A DNA stretch of 64,000 nt, taken from NCBI RefSeq assembly GCF_006345805.1, contig NC_042998.1:201748001-201812000 (forward strand), in the 5' to 3' direction. Made by a program: the position numbers and the translations under genes. The DNA comes from Octopus sinensis (Eukaryota). Of this stretch, positions 7,780 to 60,281 are shown one piece after another (positions within the stretch are counted from its first letter, which is position 1; every line of letters begins with the position of its first letter). The notes beneath the pieces are model-generated. The model saw only the letters and a list, made by a program, of their open reading frames with translations, was not told where the DNA came from and made no database searches.

Positions 7780-8055
7780 TCTTTCACTCTTTTACTCTCT
7801 CCTTTACTTGTTTTAGTCATTTCGACTGCATCCATGCTGAAGCACCGCCTTTAGTCGAGCAAAGTGACCCCAGAGCTTATTTTTTGTAAGCCTAGTACTT
7901 ATTTCATCGGTCTATTTTGCCGAACCGCTAAGTTACGGGGACGTAAAAAGACCAGCATCGGTTGTCAAGCGATGTTGGTCTGTTTACGTCCCCGTAACTT
8001 AGCGCTTTGGCAAAAGGGGGCGATAAAATACACATACACACAACATATACACACG

Positions 8056-8091
<36 letters not shown>

Positions 8092-8260
8092 TATATACGA
8101 CGGACCTCTTCCAGTTTCCGTCTACCAAATCTACTCACATGACTTTGGTCGGCCCGAGGCTAGAGTAGAAGACACTTGCCCAAGGTGCCACGCAGCGGAC
8201 TGAACCCAGAACCATGTGGCTGGTAAGCAAGCTACATACCACACAGCCACCTCATACGCC
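7780..8260 (-). mobile_element. tRNA-derived SINE, family B (internal (TA)/(TG) tract), with an internal inversion
   Basis: Homologous to 45936-46338 and 59837-60281. The head contains gtggcaccttgggcaagtgtctt (CORE-like). The tail is (gagtaaaa)n. Confidence 0.9.
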
Positions 8261-13904: not shown

Positions 13905-14316
13905 AGTTGTATACTGTCAACTTAATGTGACAGTCCCATAGAGGAAATTACTCAACGCTATTTAGCCCTGGGAAGTATCAACGCTTCCTGTCGGCTATAA
14001 CACATTTCCTGTGTTCTTATGTTTACAAAGGGGAGACAAGCACCCCCAACAGCTAGGCCTGCATCCAGAGACATGACATGTTTCTGAGTCTCGCTTGTCA
14101 TCAGTCTATGCTACTCCTGACTGATGACGAGTACGACTCAGAGACCTGTCTCTGGTTGCAGGCCTAGCTGTTGGGGGTGCTTGTCTCCCCTTTGTAAACA
14201 TAAGGACACAGGAAATGTGTCAAAGCCGACAGGAAGCGTTGATGCTTCCTAGGGCTAAATAGCGGTGGTGTAATTCCCTCTATGGGACTGTCACGTTAAG
14301 TTGACATTATACAACT
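13905..14316. repeat. About 200-bp-arm inverted repeat with an HHR motif at the inner end of each arm
   Basis: 13905-14106 is the reverse complement of 14119-14316, with a 12-nt loop. HHR motifs at 14116-14155 (+) and 14065-14109 (-). Confidence 0.9.
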
Positions 14317-14376: not shown

Positions 14377-14462
<86 letters not shown>

Positions 14463-14463
<1 letters not shown>

Positions 14464-14803
14464 CAATTGCAGCATGGAAGGTGTTTATAAGCCATTAAGA
14501 AACACACAAAAACCGTTCGATTTACTTCAACATTTAAGTCTAATTTGTCAAAATATTTTCGTCGCTTTAAGACTGCGACCTGTTCACTGACAAAAATCCG
14601 TGCTGCATCTCTTTTTGTCAGTGAACAGATCGCGGATTTTAGCGACGAAAATATTTTGACAAATTAAACTTAAATGTTGAAGTGAATCGAACGGCTTTTG
14701 TGTGTTTCTTAAATGGCTTATAAACACCTTCCACGCTGCAATTGTTTTCGTTTCAGCACACGATCACAGATCAAATTGCTTGCTATGCGAGTACATCTCC
14801 GTA
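14463..14803. repeat. 134-bp-arm inverted repeat of a short element with an HHR-like fold
   Basis: 14463-14596 pairs with 14612-14745. The right arm extends to 14803. Solo copy at 43384-43590 (-). Embedded in (TA)n. Confidence 0.9.
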
Positions 14804-14857
14804 AATATATATATATATATATTATATATATATATATATTAATATATATATATATAT

Positions 14858-15651
14858 AAAGGATTGCTTATTCGCAATTTTACAACCGGAAGACGGAAAT
14901 GCATACGTCATTTAAGTGACGGAGGACACCAGTCATCACCAATTGTTACTATAAATAAGGATTAAAACGTCTCATATTCACGAGAAGCACTTATCTTAAT
15001 AACTGACAAGGAAGGCAAGCTCATTCAACGTCCAGGCATAGCCAGACCACTGATTTTACATTTCTATTAAAACTGGTCAGGGACTATAATATAATGCCTT
15101 ATGTTAAACACAACTTTTCGTGTCCGTCTATAAGACTATCGTAAAATTGTATGCTGATTTCCTAAACGGTAAAAGTGAAAATTATAATATTAATAAGGGG
15201 GTGTTTATCCGCAATTTTCCAACCGAAATGCAGAAATATATACGGTCACTAAAATGACAACTTTTATTTCTAGCAATACTGGTACTGACAAATGTCCTCA
15301 GTTACTATAGTGGCGAATATATTTCTGCATTTCGCTCGTAAAATTGCGAATGATCCTCCCTTATAAGTTATAATTTTCACTTTTACCGTTTAGAATATCA
15401 GCGTATGATTACTACAATAATCTTATATACTGCCAAGGTGAGTTGGGTTTAACCCAAGGCCCTATGTGTGTGCTACTGACCAGCATTAGCAAAAATGCAA
15501 AATCACTGTGATCTGGCTGTTTGGACGCTGAGGGAGCTTTCCCCCTTGTCAGTCATTAAGATAAATGCTTCGCGTGACCATGAGTTGTTTTAACTCATAT
15601 TTCTAGCAATATTGGTGCCAACTAGTAACGTCGGTCACTTTAGTGACGCAT
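14858..15651. repeat. Older inverted repeat built from an about 335-bp monomer
   Basis: 14903-15241 is a diverged reverse complement of 15317-15651. There are internal direct repeats at 14858-14920/15195-15258 and 15265-15316/15599-15651. Confidence 0.75.
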
Positions 15652-17439: not shown

Positions 17440-20215
17440 GCAACCACAGAACAGCAGAATTTAAGTGTAGCACATAATGTACTGCAGCAGCTGGCGGGGT
17501 TGTAAACAACACTAAGCCATGAACAGCTACATAAGACCGCCACAAATAATAGAGCGAGCGTGACTATCATTGTCACAAAGGTGATCATCACACTAATTAT
17601 TCTGATAAATACGATAAGCGCTTCGAGGAACGTTTCTGAATGTAATCAAGAAATAATCATCGCACATGTGTCTGCAGGTAACAACTAAGTAGAGATACAC
17701 ATACCAATATAAGCCGCATTTCGTACAGACAGAAGAGAAAGACATCACGCTGGAGTTGCGTTGTGCATCCGAGAAATGCCACATTCGAATTCGATCTGTG
17801 ACGCATTCGTAGTGCATTTAAAGCAAATTGATGTGGTAATATACACATTATATTGCTCGCCCAATACCTCAACTCAGGATGGTAAACTTGAGGGAACTTT
17901 TACAATGATAAAAGAAGTACTAAGATTACTCTATCAATGCACTAATCTACTTCAGGTGGCTGACTTCATTATTCTCGACATTGGATGCCTGCTACGTGAC
18001 ATAATCTTAGAGATGATAACAAATAGCGCAATGAATCAAAATCTCTACTTGATCTCACGAAACAATTGTTCATTGAGCAAACCATAGTATCCTCAGTCAT
18101 AAATAAAACTAATTAGACCTCTGCTCCACCAACATTTTGTGAATTTATCTACGATGTGAAGATATCAACGTCAATTTTCTCAGACCACAACACAATAGAT
18201 CTGATGATGTATGGTCCAAATCTAAATAAATAGTATTCCACGCGCGTGATACCCAAAACCTATCCGGTTTCGACATCCTCAAGGCTGCGTGGAAGACAAC
18301 AGAAAAACGGATTATCCAACAAAAATTGTCTTTAAAATATCTCTATGCAAGACACCGATCGGAAATGTAAAGAATTCGTGCCAATAATACGAGCGATATG
18401 GATTATCCACTACATGCAGAATCATAATTCCCCGAGACAAGGGTGTCCATATGAGTCAGGAACTAAAGGCCGCCAATCGCGTAAATAAACAATCTAAAAA
18501 CAACGAAAAATCTCAAACACTCAAACGAAAAGGAAAAGTTGGGCAAGAGAAACCAAGTTTGCGAAGGAATCTGCCTTGGTATACTACTACGTTGGCCCTA
18601 ACTGCAGACCACAGGAGGATAAGTGATGATCTAAATTTACCACTCAGCTGGAAAATACGCAAATCAGTTAGCCTGATGAGTTTTTCCCACACCACGCAGA
18701 TCTATATGGAAAAGAGGCAACCATCGATTACATTGACATAAAAGAGGATGACGGAATATTTGTCAGTAATGTGATGAATACGAACTCATCAATGGGTCCA
18801 GATTGATTTCTGAATATTCTTTTGAAGACATACAAGAAAGCACTGAAAAAAAAACATGGGTTTTCATGCAGGTGGTAAACTTCTCAAGCAGTTAAAAGAA
18901 GGTATAATATGCCCTGGCCATAGAGGAAGAAGCAGTGCTGATGCTAAACATTACAGACATCTTATCTCTATGATTTCACATGTTACCAAGTTCATGATAC
19001 GCCTTATCTGTTCACGTTCCTGGAAGAAGAAAAACTGCTCACAAACATGCAACATGGTCTCCCGTTCAGGGAGGAACGGTTTTATACAGTTACTACAGCA
19101 TTATGCTTGGGTACTGAAATAGCAACTCAACCACTCAAATGAGGGTGTTATATATATATTGACTTTGCAAAACCATTTGGCAAAGTTTATCACGTGATGA
19201 TATAAACAAGCTGCATGACCTTGGTATAGCTGGAAAACTGGGTAATAGCTGCATGACTTTTTAATAGGCGGAAATCAGATAATTGCGTCCAATGGTGATC
19301 TCTCTGGGAAGGATTCACTTCTCAGTAGAGTTCTTCAAGTAACTGTACCGGGAGCACTACTGTTTATGGTGGCTCTTTCTGACATGCCCTCAGCCGTACT
19401 GTCAGCCACTCTTACCTGACATGCTGATGATACAAATCTATCACAGAGCGGTGACGGACGCTGACAACATAATTAAACAACCAACCGTCCTGAATGCAAT
19501 ATGCAAACTGGTTACTGGAAATAAGATGTAGTTCAATCTTGTGAACATTCAAGCGCACTACTATCTCTCTACGAATAGATGTCATTCGGAATAAATACGA
19601 CCGGTGGGTACTGAAATTCTAGAGTCAGAGTCGGTACGTGACCTGAGAATCCACATGAGTAATGATGCAATATTACTTGTCGATATTACCAAGATGGCAA
19701 CACTGTGCAGGGAATGTAATACCATTCTACTTACAGAGAACTTTCTTTCTCAGTAGTCTGGATAATTGTTCCGAAGTGTGGTCATCGCAGAGAGTCAAAC
19801 TAGTGGCGGCAAGTGAGGTAAGTCAACGTCACTATGTGAAATGCGCCTCAGCGAAACAGATGAGATGACGGAGAGGTTAAAGTAACTGAAGTTTAATATT
19901 TCGAGAGGAGGCGGGAATAATATGGAGAGATATACATATAGCAGAACATTGAAGGTCAAACATTAGATAGAAAAACTACACTAACTATCGAAAATTAGAT
20001 GGCGCTGTATCAAACATCATGTCTCCTCCATCTAGAATACGAGGCGAGTATTGTGTTTCGAGGGTCAAAAAACATTCAACATTCTATCAAACAGCGTCAG
20101 GTTTCGCGAGGTCCAGATATGGAAGTCTGGAAAGTGCATCGCTAGAGGTATTTTTTGAGATACCAGATGAACGCACAATGCACCAGGAGGCACAAAGAAG
20201 AGCAGCTATTTAAGG
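17440..20215 (+). mobile_element. Decayed CR1/L2-group LINE (APE endonuclease + RT)
   Basis: Endonuclease-like DVVIYTLYCSPN. RT motifs: KHYRHLISMISHVTKFM, QHG.RSGR, DFAKPFGKVYH (about 19161), VLQVTVPGALLF, HADDTNL (about 19420), VRDLRIHMS. Many stops and frameshifts. Confidence 0.85.
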
Positions 20216-21038
20216 CAAACCCTTGTCACAGGATAGACTGCTCCTATCCTGATACTAGTCAAATAATCTATAAACAAAATAGTCATAGCTGTTCCTCTTC
20301 TTATTAAAAAAGTAACTCTTGTGGCATATATGCATTAGTTATATGTTTATATTTCTGCATTAGTTTTCTGTAAATAACAGCATAACTATTTTAGTACCTT
20401 TGAACTTTTGACATTATTTCTGCAATCTAATAAAACATTTTTCCTCTAGTTTCGCAGGTCTCTTAAGCAAATTGCATTACGTGCCATTTGTAATTATTTA
20501 GCTTCTTCCTATGAAATATTCGATTGATATATTATCTAATAAAATATCCGAAACCAAGACTAAATTTATGTATATGAATAACATTCCTTCAACCAATTTG
20601 TCCATATTTTTCTTTCATTTGTTAGTATCTGTTATAATTTCTTACTTTGCTGCGTGATATATTCAGTTTTGTTTATTGGGTGTAGGTTTTTAATCAAGAA
20701 GAAATGGATTTTGCTCAAATAATTTGCTGAAGTGTCATATTAGTCTGCACTTCAACTCAGTCTTTTTCCAATTAAGTGAGTGTCATACGGCTTGATGAAT
20801 GAGCATTCAGTGGATCGATTTCTGATTCACTTGTAATAACACATCTTACGCCCTGAAATTGAATTTTCACAGATATCGAAGTATATTTAACAAAATGTAA
20901 CGTTTCTGATCTGTTCCTCGAAATCAACATGATCAATTGAATCGGATTAATAAAAAAATTCAGATTATGTTTATAAGGAAAGTATTGAAATTCTGGAATC
21001 GTGACAGACGGTTGCAAGTATTCCTTAATTTGTCACAT

Positions 21039-21444
21039 ACTCTTTTACTCTTTTACTTGTTTCAGTCATTTGACTGCGGCCATGTTAGAGCACCGTCTTT
21101 AGTCGAACGAATCGAACCTAGGACGTATTCTTTGTTTGCCTAGTACTTATTCTATCGGGCTCTTTTGCCGAACCACTAATTTACGGCGACGTAAACACAC
21201 CTGCATTGGTTGTCAAGTGATGTTGGGGGGACAAGCACAGACATACAAACATATACACGCATACATATATACATATACATATATACGACGGGATTCTTTC
21301 AGTTTCTGTCTACCAAATCTACTCACAAGGCTTTGGTCGGACCGAGGCTATAGTAGAAGACACTTGCCCAAGGTGCCACGCAGTGGAAATGGACCCGGAA
21401 CCACGTGGCTGGTAAGCAAGCTACTTACCACACAGCCACTCTTG
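21039..21444 (-). mobile_element. SINE family B
   Basis: Homology to the other family B copies along its full length. Confidence 0.9.
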
Positions 21445-21499
21445 AATTAAAACAAATGGCAAATATGAATAAATATATTCGAATATTACATTTCATATC

Positions 21500-22447: not shown

Positions 22448-24631
22448 CACTGGTCTTCAGAGAAAATGAGGCAAACATAAAAATAGTTGTTCTAGCATAA
22501 TTTTGGGATGATGATTTCTGATACAAGACCAGTTTTCACTCATCACCTCCAGTTTTTGAGATATACATTATTATGATTTTGCGACAATTCACCACATACA
22601 TATATATATATGTATATGATCAATTTTGCTTTTCTTTTCCACATTTTTGTAATACATATGATACATATCTCTACAATAGCTTCAGATACTTTAGAACATC
22701 AATGATACCTCAACAAGGTAAATTCATTCTGCTACGTGTGTGGGGATTTCACGACAGTTGCACAGCGCCGAACAATTACTTCTCTTTTGGAAACTGCTTA
22801 CTTTCAATATTTCGACTGTAAAATTAGGGATCAGGAATAATCCTGGACCCCACACATCTGTTGTAAACCCTGCAACAATGAACTACTACATGGTTTAACG
22901 GTAGGAAATCAGCCTTCAACTTTGCTGTTCCGATGGTCTGGAGAGAGTCACGAAGACAAGCAGATGATTGTTATTTTTGTATAACGAATATAACAGATTT
23001 CAATGCGGCTTCTATAAAAAAGATCAAGTTTTCCAGCCTTCCCTCAGCTATAATACCTGTTCCCAACTCAGATGATTTTTGGGCCTACACTCCCAGCAAA
23101 GAAGGATCTTCTTCCTACATCAGATGAAGAAATGCTTTCAGTGAAGATTTTTGCCAAGTTGTTCTCTTCAGAAGAGAACGTCTCTGTTTATTCAGGAGCA
23201 AGTGGCAATGAACCCCCTCCGCAGATCATGCAGGATGGCCTGAATGACCTTGCCATTATTTGTATCAGTAAGCAGTGTAATCTGGTCATGGCAGATGTAA
23301 GGATCACCAGTTTCAGGATACGGAACAAGGACTTCGTTTCATTCTTCGACATGGAAAACAGGTTGTACTGCTGCATAAATGTTCACCTTCCTTGGTTTCC
23401 GATACAATTCCGCAGGTTGGATTCTTTTCATAGACTATTCCAAGCGAAGTGTGAAAGCAACACTCCTGCAGAATGGGAATAAATACCACCAGCAACCTAT
23501 TGCCTACTCGGTCCATCGGAAGGAATCGTATGATAATATGAAACTCTTTTTGAAAACTGTCATATACAACCAGTACCAGTGGAGTTTCTGCGGGGATCTC
23601 AAGGCCATTGGTCACAAGCGGGCTTCACAAACTATTGATGATTTTCCTCTCTCTGGGATAGTCGGGCCGTGTCCAAGCATTACAGGCAGAAGGATTGGGG
23701 GTGGGGATCTAGGAGCATGTTGTGCCTTGTGAACACAGTGTCCAAAATAACCATCTGGTGGGCACGGAGAAGGTGCTTCCTCCTCCTCTGCATATCAAGC
23801 ATAGATTAATGAAGAATTTTGTAAAGGCCATGGACGAAAATGGTGCTACCTTCCAACATTTATGTACTCTGTTCCCAGCTTTTAGTTCTGCTAAGCTCAA
23901 GGAGGGCATCTCTGTCGGTCCGCAGATCCGAGAGGTGCTGAAGGATGAGAAATTTCAGCAGCTTCTTACATTAAAGGAACTGAGAGCATGGGAATACTTG
24001 ATGTCAGTCTGGCACGGCTTGCTTGGTAACACATGGAAACTAGATTACCAAGTATATATCGAGAAGTTATTACAGTCTTATAAGGATATGGGATGCCGAA
24101 TGCCACTCTAAATCCACTTTCTCCACTCCCTCCTCAACTCCCCCACCGAAGCTCGGAGCAGTGAGTGATGAGCATAGAGAAAGGTTATACCAAAATATTG
24201 CTAAGATGGAGAGCAACTACCAAGGCAATTTGAATTCCAGCAAGATATAGAAATTTTGCAAGATGCTCTTGCGTGACATCCCGCAGGCAAAGTACAAAAG
24301 ATCGCGGAAAAAAACTCACTTCTAACTGTCTGCTTTACTATGATTTTTGGATATTGTATTAGCAAAGTAGCATATTTCCGTCAATGTTCCGTATCTATCT
24401 ATGTTTTCTTTTTTGTAATATGCCTTTGTAACATATTAAATAACCACATTACATTTTGAGTTTATATGCAGTATAATTAAAAAGAGATATGAGAAAGCAG
24501 AAACAAAATCCAGAGGTGATAAAGGAAAACTGTTCAGAAAATTGAATTGACATCATCAAAATTAGTAAGAAAAACACATATTCACATTCCGGCCTGAAGC
24601 CCCACCACAAACAGAAAATTGTAAACCAGTG
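22448..24631 (+). mobile_element. Chapaev3-type DNA transposon with both termini; transposase pseudogene
   Basis: Ends CACTGGT...ACCAGTG flanked by a 3-bp TSD TAG. Transposase remnants: MVWRES...DCYFC, LFIDYSKRSVKATLLQNGN, FCGDLK, LPPPLHIKHRLMKNFVKAM, KEGISVGPQIR, GCRMPL*IHFLHS, GAVSDEHRERLYQNI. The superfamily name comes from recalled motifs. Confidence 0.8.
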
Positions 24632-39133: not shown

Positions 39134-42100
39134 ACTGCCTTTCCACAGCTTGTAACACTGGCGATGTACTACTGTGTCAGCTGTTCATTATCAATGAGCT
39201 AAGGTGATACCTCTTATTTTTCGAGCATTCTTTCGGAGTATTCGAGCGGTTCCAAGCAGTGCTGTTTTCTGCAAGTGCTCCAACCTTATTGCTGCCCCTA
39301 TTTGTTCGCAAAGGTTTTACTCAAAGTTCTCACTACTAACTTTTTCATCGTCCACAACTGTTTTCCCTCTCAAGCTAACCTGTCATATCTATCGACTTTT
39401 CTTTCTTCCTTAACGCATACCTCTTGTCAGTTTGGCGTGTTATATCGATGATCCAGCATAGTTTGGTTTGTTTCTCAATTAAGATTATATGTGCCTTCCT
39501 ATTCTCTATCTCATGGTAGCACTGAATCATAAAATCCAATAGGATCTTTGCATTTCTAGTTTCGATGTTGCCTTCAGGTTTGTGGTCGTACCAATTTTTT
39601 GCTCTCTCAAGTTCATACTAGCTGCAAATTTTTCAAGGGACAGGCCTGGCTATATTGTTGAGGTATCTCTTATATTCCTTCTGGGATAGTGTCGTACTCT
39701 GGCGGGTAATATGCCATACGTTTTCACCATTTTGTCCACAGATTCTGCACTCATCACTTTCTGATGTGTTGTCTACTATGAATTTCATGTAGTTTGTTCT
39801 TAGAGCTTCCTCTCGGACAGCACAGATTAGAGCTTCCGTTTCCGGTTTTATATCACTTTTAGTCATCCACAGCCATGTCTTTTTCCTGTCTTTCTTATCT
39901 TCAACATCCCTATGAAATTGTCCATGCATCTTTTCTGTGTCACTTTTTTGGGGAAGTTAGCAACTTCTTTGTTTTTTCTGTCTAAGATGTTTAGTTCGTC
40001 TACTGTCCATTCGATGACCCCTGCTCCATATCTGAGGAGCGAAAACGCCCAGTTGTTGATAGATATCTTTATTCATATTCCGTCCGTATGACTTCGACTT
40101 AAGGTTCAGTCTCAGTCTGCGCAAGTACTCCACCTTAAATTTTTCTGTCATTTGTGTCTCCATCAATGTATCCATTTCCAAAATCACCAAGTACTTGTAG
40201 CCCGACTTCTTCTTCTTCTTCTTCGTCTCTTCTTCTTCTTCTTCTTCTTCTTCTTCTTCTTCTTCTTCTTCTTCTTCTTCTTCTTCTTCTTCTTCTCTTC
40301 TTCTTCTTCTTCTTCTCCTCCTCCTTCTTCTCCTCTTCTTCCTCCTCCTCCTCCTCCTTCTTCTTCTTCTTCTTCTTCTTCTTCTTCTTCTTCTTCTTCT
40401 TCTTCTTCTTCTCTTCCTCCTCCTTCCCCCGATGGCATCGATAACACACCCATACATTTCATTTTGCCCCTCTTCAAGACTAACACACTACACTTTCTCA
40501 GTCCGAACTCCATTCTGATATCAGAACTGAAGGTATACACCGTATCAACGAGGGAACTGACTTGGGTTTCATCTCCAACATAAAGTTGAAGATCATCCAT
40601 GAATAACAAATGGATTACTTTTTTGGCGGTCTTAGAATACATACCCAGATTTTACTTTCCTCAGACTCAGTGTTAGTGGTATCAAGCACTGTACAAAGAT
40701 CAGTGGAGACAGTCCGTCCCCTTGGAAGGTGCCCCTCCTGATTTCTAGTGTCCCTAAACTTCCTTCGTATGTTGTTATGTCCGTGCCCCAATTCTTTATG
40801 CTTTTTCCAAGTAATCACTCAACATTCGATGCAATGCCAAATAGGTTCATACACTCCATAATCCAACAATATGGGATCATATCGTATGTCTTACGATAAT
40901 CGATCCATGACATGGCTAAGTTACTTTCCTCCTCTTGCAGTCTCTAGGTGCAGTTTTGTCTATCAGGAGTTGATCCTTGGTACCTCTACACTTATTCATG
41001 CAACCCTTCTGCCCATGTGACAGGACCACATTTTTTTCCAGATGTTCACTCTGCGAGTATTTCAGTCATGAATTTCCGCATAAGTGGCAAACAGGATATC
41101 ATCCTATAATTGTCTACGGTATTGCTTTTTCGATGGTTTTGAAGCATAGCACTGTCCTACCCAATATCAACCACTCTGGTGTTACTTGGTCAGCATTTAA
41201 CAAGGTACTGATTTGCTCAGCTATGCGTGCATGACATTCACCAAATCTTTTGATCTAGTAGCCTGAACTCCATCTGGTTCCGCGGCCTTCCAGTTGCTCA
41301 TTCCTTTGCTAATTTCCTTCACCTCCCTAACTTAAATGACTATTTGTGCCTGTTTTGGACAGACTATTATTTATTCCAGTTCTTGCAACCATTCAGCATC
41401 CTGCTTGTGCTCCTTGGCTTTGTTCCAGATGCCACTCCAAAACCTTTGACTTTCAACGTTATCTGGTATCCATTTTCATTTGTACACTATCCATTTATTT
41501 CTTTATTAAATCTCTTCTGATGCACTCTGAATAATCTATTCTGGTTGTAACCCTTCATTCTTTGGTCGTATCTTACCATCTTTGCTTTCGTTGCAACGAG
41601 TTGTTGGCTCAGTTCCTCCATTACCACTTTCAGGCCCTTTCTTTCAATATCATACTTCCTTTTCAGCGTCCTGTATTTTTGTTTGCTTTGAAGCTCCACT
41701 TTCTCTTTTCGGTATAACACAGAAATTTCCTTCGAGAGCATAACTAACCCTGCCTCTGTTCTTCTTTTCCACCATTGGTCTTTTCTTTTATCACTCCGAT
41801 TGTATTTCTTTTTCTTGACATCAACACCCACATTTTATTTGTTTCTGTGATGTTGTTTGTTCTTATGTATTTCATAATTTCATTGACATTGTTCGTTTCT
41901 TGGATCAACCATTTTAAGGTTGCAAATTATGCCGCTGGTGTTCACCTGTAGCCTTGTCTTTATCCTGCTATAGATTGCCTTTTGTTCATCTGTCATATCA
42001 CCATTAGTTTTATTGTCTTCTTTTAGATCATCTGTATGTCTATCATCAAGTCAACTACCACTGTTCCTTTCCTGTGCTACGAGATTTCTTTTATTAGTAA

Positions 42101-42932: not shown

Positions 42933-43093
42933 TGGCTGTGTGGTAAGTAGCTTGCTAACCAACCACATGGTTCCGGGTTCAGTCGCACTGCGTGGCATCT
43001 TGGGCAAGTATCTTCTGCTATAGCCCCGGGCCGACCAATGCCTTGTGAGTGGATTTGGTAGACGGAAACTGAAAGAAACCTGTCGTATATATG

Positions 43094-43165
<72 letters not shown>

Positions 43166-43372
43166 TGTGTCTATGTTTGTTCCCCTAGCATTGCTTACAA
43201 AAACCGATGCTGGTGTGTTTACGTCCCCGTCACTTAGCGGTTCGGCAAAATAGACCGATAGAATAAGTACTGGGCTTACAAAGAATAAGTCCCTGGGTCG
43301 ATTTGCTCGACTAAAGGCGGTGCTCCAGCATGGCCGCAGTCAAATGACTGAAATAAGTAAAAGAGTAAAAGA
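42933..43372 (+). mobile_element. SINE family B
   Basis: Homology along its full length. Confidence 0.92.
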
Positions 43373-43383
43373 ATATATATATA

Positions 43384-43590
43384 TTACGGAGATGTACTCG
43401 CATAGCAAGTGATTTGATCCGAGATCGTGAGCTGAAACGAAAACAATTGCAGCGTGGAAGGTGTTTGTAAGCCATTTAAGAAACACACAAAAGCCGTTCG
43501 ATTCTCTTCAACATTTATGTTTAATTTGTCAAAATATTTTCGTCGCTAAAATCCGCGACCTGTTCACTGATAAAAGTCCGTGCTGCATCA
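43384..43590 (-). mobile_element. Solo copy of the GTGAACA HHR-like element
   Basis: Reverse complement of 14612-14803. Ends at the same ccgtgctgcatc seen at 14598-14609. (TA)-rich flanks. Confidence 0.85.
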
Positions 43591-45099
43591 ATATATATAT
43601 ATATATCGTTGTAATAATGAGAGTGCTTTCGATGCATGTCTGAGCAATATGTAACGCGAAATACATCCATTACGTGAACCTTCCATTTCAGAGAAGTTTT
43701 GAAATCCTTTAACTGAGGGAGATCTATTCAATGGAGACATTTTCTATTACATATTATCCTACTAGAAACGTACGTATGGTATTACTTCAAAATATTGTTA
43801 TTAAGTTTGATTTTATTATTTTAGCTAATAAGATTTAGTACCAGTACAAACTAGTGTGGTATCTTGTTTTTTTTTTTGCGCCAATAATTTATATATTATG
43901 ACATCTCGAAAAGGAAATAAAAAAAACAAATATACGATATATTATTGGATGTAAATCATCACGTGAGTGATTGCTCTGTCTGTGCGTAAGTGAAAATACA
44001 GTACATTATCATCAGCGAATATATGAATGTATTTTGAGATCTTCTAATGGCCCATTTCTATTTATATTTGGAAATTCGTGAATAAAGACGTAACTGAAGA
44101 CATCATTACAAAGTGGTAATATCATGCTTCTCAACAAAACAGTAGTAATCAAAGGATATGTTATCATCTTTCATGAAATTAATCAGATATCTTGCAGTTT
44201 CTCCACAGGATCTTTTGTATTATCTTTGTCATTTCGTCTTAGAAACATTCTGAATATATTTATTTTATTCTAGAAAAATGTCACCGCCCCATTGCTATAT
44301 TATATTCAAAATCAACCAAAAATTATATATGTAGTTTAGTAAATTAAATATAATTACTAGCAGGAATGATAAGAAAGCTGGTTATTAGATCTCTTTCTGA
44401 AATATAATATCGAGTAACTGCGTGATGTTCAGATATTAAATGCTGAATATATACAGTAACAGCAGTAGTTTAGGTTTCGATTTAAAAGATCTATTGAGGA
44501 ATGAAAAAATTACAACTTACTTTTGTCTACAATACTGGTATTAATTTCGCTTTATAAGAAACCCGTTAAATGTCAGAAGGAAAAGAGATTGATAGGGAAG
44601 CTGTTCGACTATATTTGCCTCAGCTGAATGAAATATCACATCCGATTGTCGAATAATTATTCTACAATAATATGTATATTCCATAGGCTTAGTGAATATT
44701 AAAAACTCAATGAGTCAAATCAATTATGAAGATGTTAGTTTTTTCTTTCTTCGCGGCAAGATTCCGCTTGTCTGTGGGTGTTGTAAGGAGGGCAACTACA
44801 ACAAACTTAAGGGGAAATTCAGTAAGTGACACCAATCAACTACGTTCGATACCAAGCATCTATATTAAGTTATATCAATATATTTGCTCATTACATATGC
44901 AACTTACCATAAGTGGTTTTATCACGTCCGAAGACATGCTGCACGCTGGTGGGTTGATGCTTTAATACACATTTGAGGCAACTGTATTAACAGATCATGT
45001 ATTTTTTTTCCTGTAAGTATACCAGTCAAAACTATTGAAAATGTTGCAAGACGCGACGAAAATTTTAGAAAAATTAAAAATAAGAAAAAAGTGGAAATT

Positions 45100-45936: not shown

Positions 45937-46338
45937 GGCGCAGGAGTGGCTGTGTGGTAAGTAGCTTGCTAACCAACCACATGGTTCCGGGTTCAGTCCC
46001 ACTGCGTGGCACCTTGGGCAAGTGTCTTGTGCTATAGCCTCGAGCCGACCAATGCCTTGTGAGTGGATTTGGTAGACGGAAACTAAAAGAAGCCCGTCGT
46101 ATATATGTATATATATATATGTGTGTGCGTGTATGTTTGTGTGTCTGTGTTTGTCCCCCTAGCATTGCTTGACAACCGATGCTGGTGTGTTTACGTCCCC
46201 GTTTCATTAGCGGTTCGGCAAAAGAGACCGATAGAATAAGTACTGGGCTTACAAAAGAATAAGTCCCGGGTCGAGTTGCTCGATTTAAGGCGGTGCTCCA
46301 GCATGGCCGCAGTCAAATGACTGAAACAAGTAAAAGAG
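45936..46338 (+). mobile_element. SINE family B, full length, young
   Basis: Starts aggcgcaggagtggctgtgtggtaag, has a B-box-like gggttcagtccc, and is inserted in (TA)n. Confidence 0.93.
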
Positions 46339-59836: not shown

Positions 59837-59998
59837 AGGCGCATAGTGGCTGAGTGGTAAGTAGCTTGCTAACCAACCACATGGTTGCGGGTTCAGTCCC
59901 ACTGCGTGACATCTTGGGCAAGTGTCTTCTGCTATAGCCTCGGGCCGACCAATGCCTTGTGAGTGGATTTGGTAGACGGAAACTGAAAGAAGCCTGTC

Positions 59999-60069
<71 letters not shown>

Positions 60070-60281
60070 TGTGTCTGTGTTTGTCCCCCTAGCATTGCTT
60101 GACAACCGATGCTGGTGTGTTTACGTCCCCGTCACTTAGCGGGTCGGCAAAAGAGACCGATAGAATAAGTACTGGACTTACAAAGAATAAGTCCGGGGTC
60201 GATTTGATCGACTAAAGGCGGTGCTCCAGCATGGCCGCAGTCAAATGACTGAAACAAGTAAGAGAGTAAAAGAGTAAGGAG
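59837..60281 (+). mobile_element. SINE family B, full length, young
   Basis: Near-identical to 45936-46338. Possible TSD tatac(a/t)c. Confidence 0.93.

What the first reader, a model, noticed from the sequence alone, without database searches (positions are those of the whole stretch)
14612..14663. Hammerhead topology with a conserved non-canonical core GTGAACA in three copies
Seen: tttgtca-GTGAACA-g(g/a)tcgc-loop-gcgac-GAAA-atat-TT-tgacaaa, with a 7-bp stem I, stem II and palindromic stem III exactly where an HHR needs them. GTGAACA replaces CTGANGA in all three copies (14621+, about 14581-, about 43561-), so it is a family trait rather than copy decay. Inference: the C3G and G8C changes would retain the canonical 3-8 tertiary pair as a compensatory swap, which argues for selection on structure and possibly on activity.
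Basis: partly seen in the sequence, partly recalled or inferred. Interest (0 to 1): 0.8.

Follow-up and report, generated by a model that had tools for sequence, protein, structure and literature searches.

The report
Natural G3–C8 hammerhead in Penelope retrotransposon
Thousands of copies of a young Penelope-type jumping gene carry a small hammerhead (self-cutting RNA) motif whose paired core letters are swapped to G–C, while sister families in the same genome have C–G or U–A there, so it likely still cuts slowly, in pairs or with protein help, and searches for the textbook core cannot see it.

Summary
The motif is real. It is the minimal type I hammerhead in the pseudo-LTR of a Penelope-like retrotransposon family (RT plus C-terminal GIY-YIG). 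The window holds three solo pLTR copies. The genome has 6,443 matches to the core pattern, and 94 of the first 100 are G3–C8.

Sister families carry the homologous motif at the same place with C3–G8 or U3–A8. The 3–8 pair is Watson–Crick in 17 of 18 aligned motifs. A model trained without this family finds all three window copies. So the compensatory swap is supported.

Cleavage is not shown. Published G3–C8 mutants are only partly active. The active-type dimer is predicted less stable than mispaired forms. 94 of 100 copies span the cut site, and replicating relatives tolerate other core changes.

Corrections: the cited copy is a damaged one (G10.1→A), and three copies of one family are not independent evidence.

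I found no natural G3–C8 hammerhead in ten paper searches, but the main variant survey (Lünse 2017) could not be read. The scan noted a similar, unsettled case in another genome (e1-7353390). Verdict: new variant of a known kind, interest 0.55.

The parts
14612..14804 (+). Direct solo pseudo-LTR copy of the Penelope-like family ('family A'), 5'-truncated at stem I, with tail
   Evidence: same sequence lies about 1 kb 3' of the ORF in 23 of 30 ORF loci
14463..14611 (-). Inverted pLTR copy without tail, joined head-to-head to the direct copy; begins with an extra G before the usual 5' end
   Evidence: same arrangement in many genomic copies
14614..14620 (+). Stem I, 5' arm (pairs with 14657-14663)
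   Evidence: sequence; fold
14621..14627 (+). Core positions 3-9 with G3 (14621) and C8 (14626)
   Evidence: G3-C8 in 75 of 83 unbiased copies
14628..14646 (+). Unpaired G (14628), stem II (14629-14633 with 14642-14646) and loop II (14634-14641); 14629 is A in this copy, G in the family
14647..14656 (+). G12-A13-A14-A15.1, palindromic helix III (14650-14655) and U17 (14656); predicted cut between 14656 and 14657
   Evidence: sequence; numbering by alignment to sister motifs
14657..14663 (+). Stem I, 3' arm
   Evidence: sequence; fold
14713..14802 (+). Start codon and first 30 codons of the element's RT-endonuclease ORF
   Evidence: pLTR runs straight into the ORF in L396, L397 and L403
14747..14804 (+). 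58-nt tail present at only one end of an insertion (likely the stretch between two RT start sites)
   Evidence: loose ends behind 14746/14747 and 14804; interpretation from PMC11167929
14543..14595 (-). Second motif copy, intact, different loop II; G3 at 14587, predicted cut after 14551
   Evidence: E 4.8e-10
43384..43589 (-). Third copy: solo pLTR with tail in (TA)n; motif 43524-43575, G3 at 43567, one mismatch in stem I
   Evidence: (E 1.1e-8)
14384..14462 (.). (TA)n-rich left flank (target site)
14805..14858 (.). (TA)n-rich right flank (target site)

Best explanation
This is the minimal type I hammerhead motif in the pseudo-LTR of a Penelope-like retrotransposon, with the 3-8 core pair swapped to G3-C8 in the whole family, and it likely still self-cleaves slowly, as a dimer or with help from the element's protein. 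Shown: the motif lies 56 nt upstream of the ORF start codon and occurs at both ends of a pLTR-ORF-pLTR unit; sister families have C-G or U-A at the same pair; stems covary. Inferred: transcription starts about 22 nt before G3; two motifs (the two pLTRs of one transcript, or two RNAs) pair through the palindromic helix III; G3-C8 then positions residue 8 as C3-G8 does; cleavage after U17 would remove the capped 5' end or release a unit-length RNA in a minority of transcripts. Most genomic copies, including the three here, were likely copied from uncut RNA, from RT start sites at the tail back to the 5' end.
For: Linkage to RT-GIY-YIG ORF: (23 of 30 loci). Family state: 94 of first 100; 75 of 83; 95 of 100, older loop type; 97 of 100, young loop type. 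Covariation: (3-8 pair C-G 7, U-A 6, G-C 4, unpaired 1 of 18 rows; 10 of 13 pairs change on both sides; slid controls 29-50% paired against 84%). Model built from 15 non-A motifs ranks the three copies among its top four window hits, E 1e-5 or better, next hit 0.27. Tree: A, B and C form one clade (SH-aLRT 100), outside relatives read carry C3-G8 or U3-A8. All four published minimal-hammerhead traits are present (PMC4209133). The double mutant partly restores cleavage in a Penelope hammerhead (PMC11167929), and it was the only rescuing double change in this motif in a full pairwise scan (PMC9901934). Rough inference: if a second core change were random, it would hit exactly C8 about 1 time in 30.
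Against: No cleavage data. Predicted active-type dimer -28.8 kcal/mol against -28.2 for two monomers and -30.6 to -32.7 for mispaired dimers. 94 of 100 copies run through the cut site; the 4 that begin exactly there are inversion junctions explained by 7-nt stem I homology. Young family B carries C9 in most copies read and a relative has A12 in two records, so replicating relatives tolerate core damage. Hammerhead mutants did not impair insertion in vitro in the anole element. Subfamily changes avoid the motif (1 of 42 sites against 14 of 136) but not significantly (p = 0.2). Rows of the alignment are related, so its shuffle control is not a probability.
Confidence: 0.57

Rival explanations
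1. The motif is a hammerhead homologue that no longer cuts at a rate that matters. The swap arose by two steps in a replicating lineage that did not need cleavage, and it was kept by hitchhiking or because the fold serves another role (RNA-protein assembly, RT pausing, promoter sequence).
For: C9 in young family B and A12 in a relative. Cleavage is dispensable for insertion in vitro. A single-mutant intermediate must have replicated unless both changes arose together; G at 8 is the only other letter seen in the older loop type (5 of 100, none A or T). Unfavourable dimer energetics.
Against: The other nine core letters, the unpaired G, G10.1-C11.1 and the helix III palindrome are all kept across families about 55% identical in protein. 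The two changes are the one known rescuing pair. G3 with G8 copies are scattered over the tree and often have a C8 partner in the same insertion.
Confidence: 0.31
2. An efficient ribozyme that cuts as a monomer in vivo and yields circular RNA, as in non-LTR retrozymes; intact motifs in genomic copies would come from re-ligated circles.
For: Stem I is 7 bp, long for a minimal motif. A re-ligated circular template would also give copies with an intact motif (inference).
Against: Helix III does not form in the monomer. The family is the pLTR of an autonomous element, not a short tandem array. 5' ends pile up upstream of the motif, often with an extra G, which fits capped linear templates.
Confidence: 0.06
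3. A chance hairpin, or the terminal repeat of a DNA element, that only looks like a hammerhead.
For: No Rfam hammerhead match; weak fold z-scores on either strand.
Against: Rfam also misses the canonical-core sister motifs. Homologous motifs with canonical cores sit at the same place in sister elements, and the downstream pLTR of A and C aligns above all 200 shuffles (A with B did not).
Confidence: 0.02

Closest known systems
Minimal type I hammerheads of Penelope-like elements (Cervera and De la Pena 2014, PMC4209133)
   Same: Location in the pLTR; unpaired nucleotide between 9 and 10.1; G10.1-C11.1; palindromic helix III; U17 also occurs in their alignment; mostly solo copies.
   Different: Core pair is G3-C8. 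None of their 56 representative motifs begins with G3, and their descriptor starts from the C3-G8 core.
Natural U3-A8 core variants (Perreault 2011, PMC3088659; Schistosoma Cercyon elements, PMC4209133)
   Same: Natural covariation of the 3-8 pair; families C and the 781-aa family of this genome have it too.
   Different: U3-A8 keeps pyrimidine at 3 and purine at 8. G3-C8 reverses them and needs two transversions.
Engineered C3G/G8C double mutants (anole PAc element, PMC11167929; pairwise scan, PMC9901934; Martick and Scott 2006 as cited there)
   Same: Identical core swap; partial rescue of cleavage.
   Different: Those are laboratory mutants. Here the swap is the natural state of thousands of copies, in a minimal motif with U17.
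Nematis/Neptune-type EN+ Penelope-like elements (Craig 2021, PMC8557442)
   Same: Single ORF with RT, a CX3CxxC linker and C-terminal GIY-YIG with CCHH; pLTRs; inverted 5'-truncated copies; tail; (TA)n targets.
   Different: Clade not fixed against reference sequences. The short linker points to Nematis (inference). Tail is 58 nt rather than 30-40.
Non-LTR retrozymes (PMC7229834; bioRxiv 10.64898/2026.07.22.740005)
   Same: Short, non-coding, hammerhead-bearing copies that derive from PLE pLTRs.
   Different: Here copies are dispersed solo or inverted pairs, not tandem arrays, and the same sequence flanks a coding element.

Membership tests
Hammerhead ribozyme, canonical core | Literal core letters C3 and G8 (CUGANGA) | tested here: not met
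   G3 and C8; the canonical core in family A flanks gave 10 genome-wide hits, all 10 from other families. Not filed as a canonical-core hammerhead.
PLE minimal type I hammerhead | Watson-Crick pair between positions 3 and 8 | tested here: met
   G-C here; C-G or U-A in relatives; 17 of 18 rows paired
PLE minimal type I hammerhead | U4, G5, A6, A9, G12, A13, A14, A15.1-U16.1 and H17 | tested here: met
   each is the commonest letter in at least 92% of unbiased copies
PLE minimal type I hammerhead | Unpaired nucleotide between 9 and 10.1; G10.1-C11.1 | tested here: met
   family state; the 14621 copy itself has A10.1
PLE minimal type I hammerhead | Palindromic helix III, unstable as monomer | tested here: met
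   14650-14655 is palindromic; not formed in monomer folds; 15.2-16.2 covaries
PLE minimal type I hammerhead | Position in the pLTR of a Penelope-like element | tested here: met
PLE minimal type I hammerhead | Self-cleavage as dimer or with protein | not testable with these tools
   needs a bench assay; only folding energies computed
Rfam hammerhead families | Score against the Rfam models | tested here: inconclusive
   no hit in the window, and none for canonical-core sister motifs either
EN+ Penelope-like element | Single ORF with RT and C-terminal GIY-YIG bearing CCHH | tested here: met
   motifs read directly in the 1042-aa frame; aligns over RT and EN with a Pfam RVT_1 + GIY-YIG protein of this genome, E 3e-10; Pfam itself does not score the family A protein
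EN+ Penelope-like element | pLTR tandem, inverted 5'-truncated copy, one-sided tail, microsatellite targets | tested here: met
Nematis clade | Reduced CX2-5CxxC linker before the endonuclease | tested here: met
   CX3CxxC present; spacer to the endonuclease 17 residues shorter than in the 781-aa family
Nematis clade | Placement with reference Nematis RTs in a tree | not tested
   no named reference sequences were at hand; one search uses unnamed relatives
Naiad/Chlamys | N-terminal endonuclease | tested here: not met
   endonuclease is C-terminal
Non-LTR retrozyme | Short head-to-tail tandem arrays, non-coding | tested here: not met
   dispersed solo and inverted copies, linked to a coding element

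The most novel reading that the evidence does not exclude
The first natural hammerhead family with the reversed G3-C8 core pair: an active, tuned-down ribozyme that crossed a two-step fitness valley, sitting beside sister families with C-G and U-A. It would show that selection acts on the catalytic fold in Penelope elements, and that G3-C8 hammerheads are an unsearched class, perhaps arising more than once (the scan's note from another genome) and perhaps hidden in elements said to lack hammerheads.
Probability: 0.4. Interest if true: 0.72.

Novelty: new variant of a known kind. Interest (0 to 1): 0.55.

Why it matters
The 3-8 pair is the textbook tertiary contact of the hammerhead active site. 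The G-C swap has been known as a laboratory rescue; the natural variant I could find in print was U-A. A natural family fixed for G-C, with C-G and U-A sisters in the same genome, gives a ready three-way comparison. It bears on an open question: whether Penelope elements are selected to keep a working ribozyme, given that cleavage was dispensable in vitro. It also shows a blind spot, since descriptors that demand the canonical core (as in PMC8557442) skip such motifs. It does not reveal a new mechanism.

Tried and rejected
Rfam: no hammerhead hit in the window or in 8 control loci that include canonical-core sisters, so it is uninformative.

Expression and RNA ends: no RNA holder listed on record (14 holders are only guessed to be RNA). 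Contigs of four such runs cover the pLTR, with no place where many molecules begin or end. Contigs cannot show ends, so this counts neither way. Cover is thinner over the motif's 5' half in all eight runs laid; I draw nothing from that.

5' ends at the cut site as a sign of cleavage: 4 of 100 in family A, all at stem I inversion junctions; 1 of 30 in the C3-G8 sister family B. Not discriminating.

A distinct G3-with-G8 intermediate subfamily: 211 matches. The label is clustered on the tree (10 changes against 17 shuffled) but needs at least 4 origins, and the sample was enriched by my searches. Older against young loop type, 5 of 100 against 1 of 100, p = 0.21. Not established.

An intron ending just before the pLTR 5' end: the upstream sequence looks like a 3' splice site, but no shared exon sequence precedes short copies. 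A start site fits better; not settled.

Naiad identity: rejected, the endonuclease is C-terminal. Retrozyme: rejected, no arrays seen. The first 30 GIY-YIG loci did not carry this pLTR; the partner ORF came from a long copy.

No relatives in prokaryote genomes. The solved-structure search gave only weak RT hits. No earlier notes by place or sequence. PMC11014351 passages held nothing relevant.

Full report
OBSERVATION. The motif is present three times as described. Numbering and corrections are in the observation check. The copy named in the finding has A at 10.1 and is a damaged member; the inverted copy beside it is intact. Folding predicts stems I and II but no helix III in the monomer, with weak z-scores on either strand. 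Rfam gives no hammerhead hit, but it also misses canonical-core relatives in 8 control loci.

THE REPEAT. The 200-nt stretch is a high-copy repeat in a 2.72-Gb genome. A pattern that allowed C or G at both 3 and 8 matched 6,443 places against 2 for the reversed control; the first 100 listed were 94 G3-C8, 4 G3/G8, 2 C3/C8 and no C3-G8. An anchor 3' of the motif matched 9,581 places. Among the first 100 of those, 83 covered both positions and 75 were G3-C8. Copies show the Penelope signature described in PMC8557442: an inverted truncated copy at the 5' end, a tail at one end only, (TA)n targets and some target duplications. Contigs of runs from four coded organisms hold the family with the same core in their loose ends.

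THE PARENT ELEMENT. One long copy ran upstream into an ORF ending in a GIY-YIG domain. Searching with that protein gave 99 matches. In 23 of the best 30 loci the pLTR lies in sense about 1 kb downstream (one partial; three of the 23 look like near-identical repeats); 4 have it only upstream or inverted, and 3 lack it within the flank. A 1042-aa open frame shows RT motifs, a CX3CxxC linker and a GIY-YIG domain with CCHH. Pfam does not score it, but it aligns over RT and endonuclease with a Pfam-positive element of the same genome. In L396, L397 and L403 the pLTR runs straight into the ORF, whose start codon corresponds to window 14713. L403 is a pLTR-ORF-pLTR unit with the motif at both ends, 4,361 nt apart, and one frameshift. 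The short linker suggests Nematis (inference). A protein named as Octopus vulgaris groups with sister family B, so the host is likely an octopus.

SISTER FAMILIES TEST THE SWAP. Family B (53-55% protein identity) has the motif at the same place with C3-G8. Its older copies are fully canonical, while its young copies have C9. Family C has U3-A8 in 31 of 31 pattern matches. Families D and E, for which only pLTRs or short ORF pieces were found, have canonical cores with stems close to A's. The canonical core in family A flanks matched 10 places, all 10 from those other families. Metagenome relatives carry U3-A8 (L183, L184) or C3-G8 (L185, L187); 5 of the 9 loci gave no motif. On 18 aligned motifs (4 from family A, so rows are not independent) the 3-8 pair was C-G 7, U-A 6, G-C 4 and unpaired 1. 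Ten of 13 pairs changed on both sides, and slid controls fell from 84% to 29-50% paired. A covariance model from 15 motifs without family A scored the three window copies at E 4.8e-10, 1.1e-8 and 1.1e-5. It also found a family C copy at 45027-45073; the next hit was 0.27 (E-values rough). A quick tree of 26 proteins joins A with B and C at SH-aLRT 100 (14 of 23 database proteins used; D, E and L186-L189 left out). G3-C8 is therefore the derived state by parsimony on the few relatives whose motif I could read.

HOW IT LIKELY WORKS. 5' ends of 100 unbiased copies pile up at two places: 32 at or just inside a fixed point about 22 nt before G3, and 22 at the start of stem I. Of 46 short copies that begin at the fixed point, 30 have a G in front, where all 17 longer copies have C or T (p 2e-12 against 18% G). 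This fits a capped start site copied by RT (inference; a splice junction is the alternative). The two 3' ends define a 58-nt tail inside the ORF start, as the two RT start sites do in the anole element (PMC11167929). So solo copies are likely cDNAs from the upstream pLTR of capped, uncut transcripts. The motif would cut about 58 nt from the cap and 56 nt before the start codon, and needs a partner to form helix III. Published G3-C8 mutants are partly active.

RESULTS AGAINST ACTIVITY. The active-type dimer is predicted barely more stable than two monomers and 2-4 kcal/mol less stable than mispaired dimers. 94 of 100 copies span the cut site; the 4 that start there are stem I inversion junctions, and family B looks the same (1 of 30). 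Family B's young copies have C9, and L185 and L187 have A12. Subfamily changes fall in loop II and the flanks, and the only one inside the motif keeps pairing as U-G, but the contrast is not significant. Individual copies decay in the core as fast as in the flank (3.8% against 3.0%), as expected for dead copies. G3/G8 copies number 211. They are scattered, with a hint of excess G in the older loop type (5 of 5 non-C letters), which does not establish an intermediate lineage.

LITERATURE. What I saw: PMC4209133, parts 1-2 of 4 of the text and parts 1-2 of 3 of supplement 2 (supplement 1 not searchable); PMC11167929, passages and all of section 3; PMC9901934, passages and section 7; passages only of PMC8557442, PMC3088659, PMC3884650, PMC6765202, PMC8495972, PMC7229834 and PMC11014351; bioRxiv 10.64898/2026.07.22.740005, part 1 of 5 and passages (supplements not seen). 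Natural U3-A8 is reported. None of 56 representative PLE motifs starts with G3. Ten searches listed G3-C8 only as an engineered mutant; most listed papers were seen as listing and abstract start only. Lünse 2017, Przybilski and Hammann 2007, Martick and Scott 2006 and Nelson and Uhlenbeck 2008 were not held. Lünse 2017 surveys PLE hammerhead variants and could contain G3-C8 examples, so novelty is not proven. An earlier scan note (e1-7353390) describes a G3-C8 motif with an extra base behind a Penelope RT in another genome; it was unsettled and I did not check it.

VERDICT. A real, homologous PLE minimal hammerhead with a natural compensatory G3-C8 core (about 0.93). Slow dimer- or protein-assisted cleavage is the most likely function (0.57); a non-cutting relic is the main rival (0.31). 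New variant of a known kind; interest 0.55.

Noticed in passing
window 45027-45073 (+): Solo pLTR of sister family C with a U3-A8 minimal hammerhead, slightly decayed.
   Followed up: partly
L122:5863-5912, L336-L365: Young family B (1044-aa open frame; 3,905 anchor matches) has C instead of A at core position 9 in most copies read, while older copies are canonical; U17 and C17 both occur.
   Followed up: partly
L185:4460-4502, L187:2268-2310: A related element in two metagenome records has a canonical 5' core but A at position 12.
   Followed up: no
L055, L058, L067, L070-L073, L076-L080, L083: A very young, unrelated 781-aa Penelope-like family (long linker, Neptune-like by inference) with several open frames has a U3-A8 motif without the unpaired base after position 9.
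   Followed up: partly
window 14611 and family copies: An extra G precedes the fixed 5' end in 30 of 46 short copies; likely a copied cap, marking a start site inside the pLTR.
   Followed up: partly
L282, L300, L031, L313: Inversion junctions that switch strand exactly through the stem I arms; the hairpin seems to guide template switching.
   Followed up: partly
L041, L045, L046, L302, L324, L329, L371: One inverted-pair insertion recurs with the same flank in about 14 places, so it was amplified as a passenger of another repeat.
   Followed up: no
L171, L173, L174, L176, L178, L179, L191, L218: Further old pLTR families with hammerhead-like motifs and no ORF linked with confidence.
   Followed up: no
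window 13953-14267: Inverted repeat with 121-nt arms, 94% complementary, 73 nt apart, about 200 nt left of the finding.
   Followed up: no
window 42933-43171, 45947-46185, 59847-60085, 21037-21478, 7821-8198: Several copies of another interspersed repeat with microsatellite ends, SINE-like by appearance.
   Followed up: no
window 40184-40651 (-), 17713-18087 (+), 23054-24111 (+): Broken coding remnants that look like a LINE RT, an endonuclease and a DNA transposase (labels by eye, not searched).
   Followed up: no
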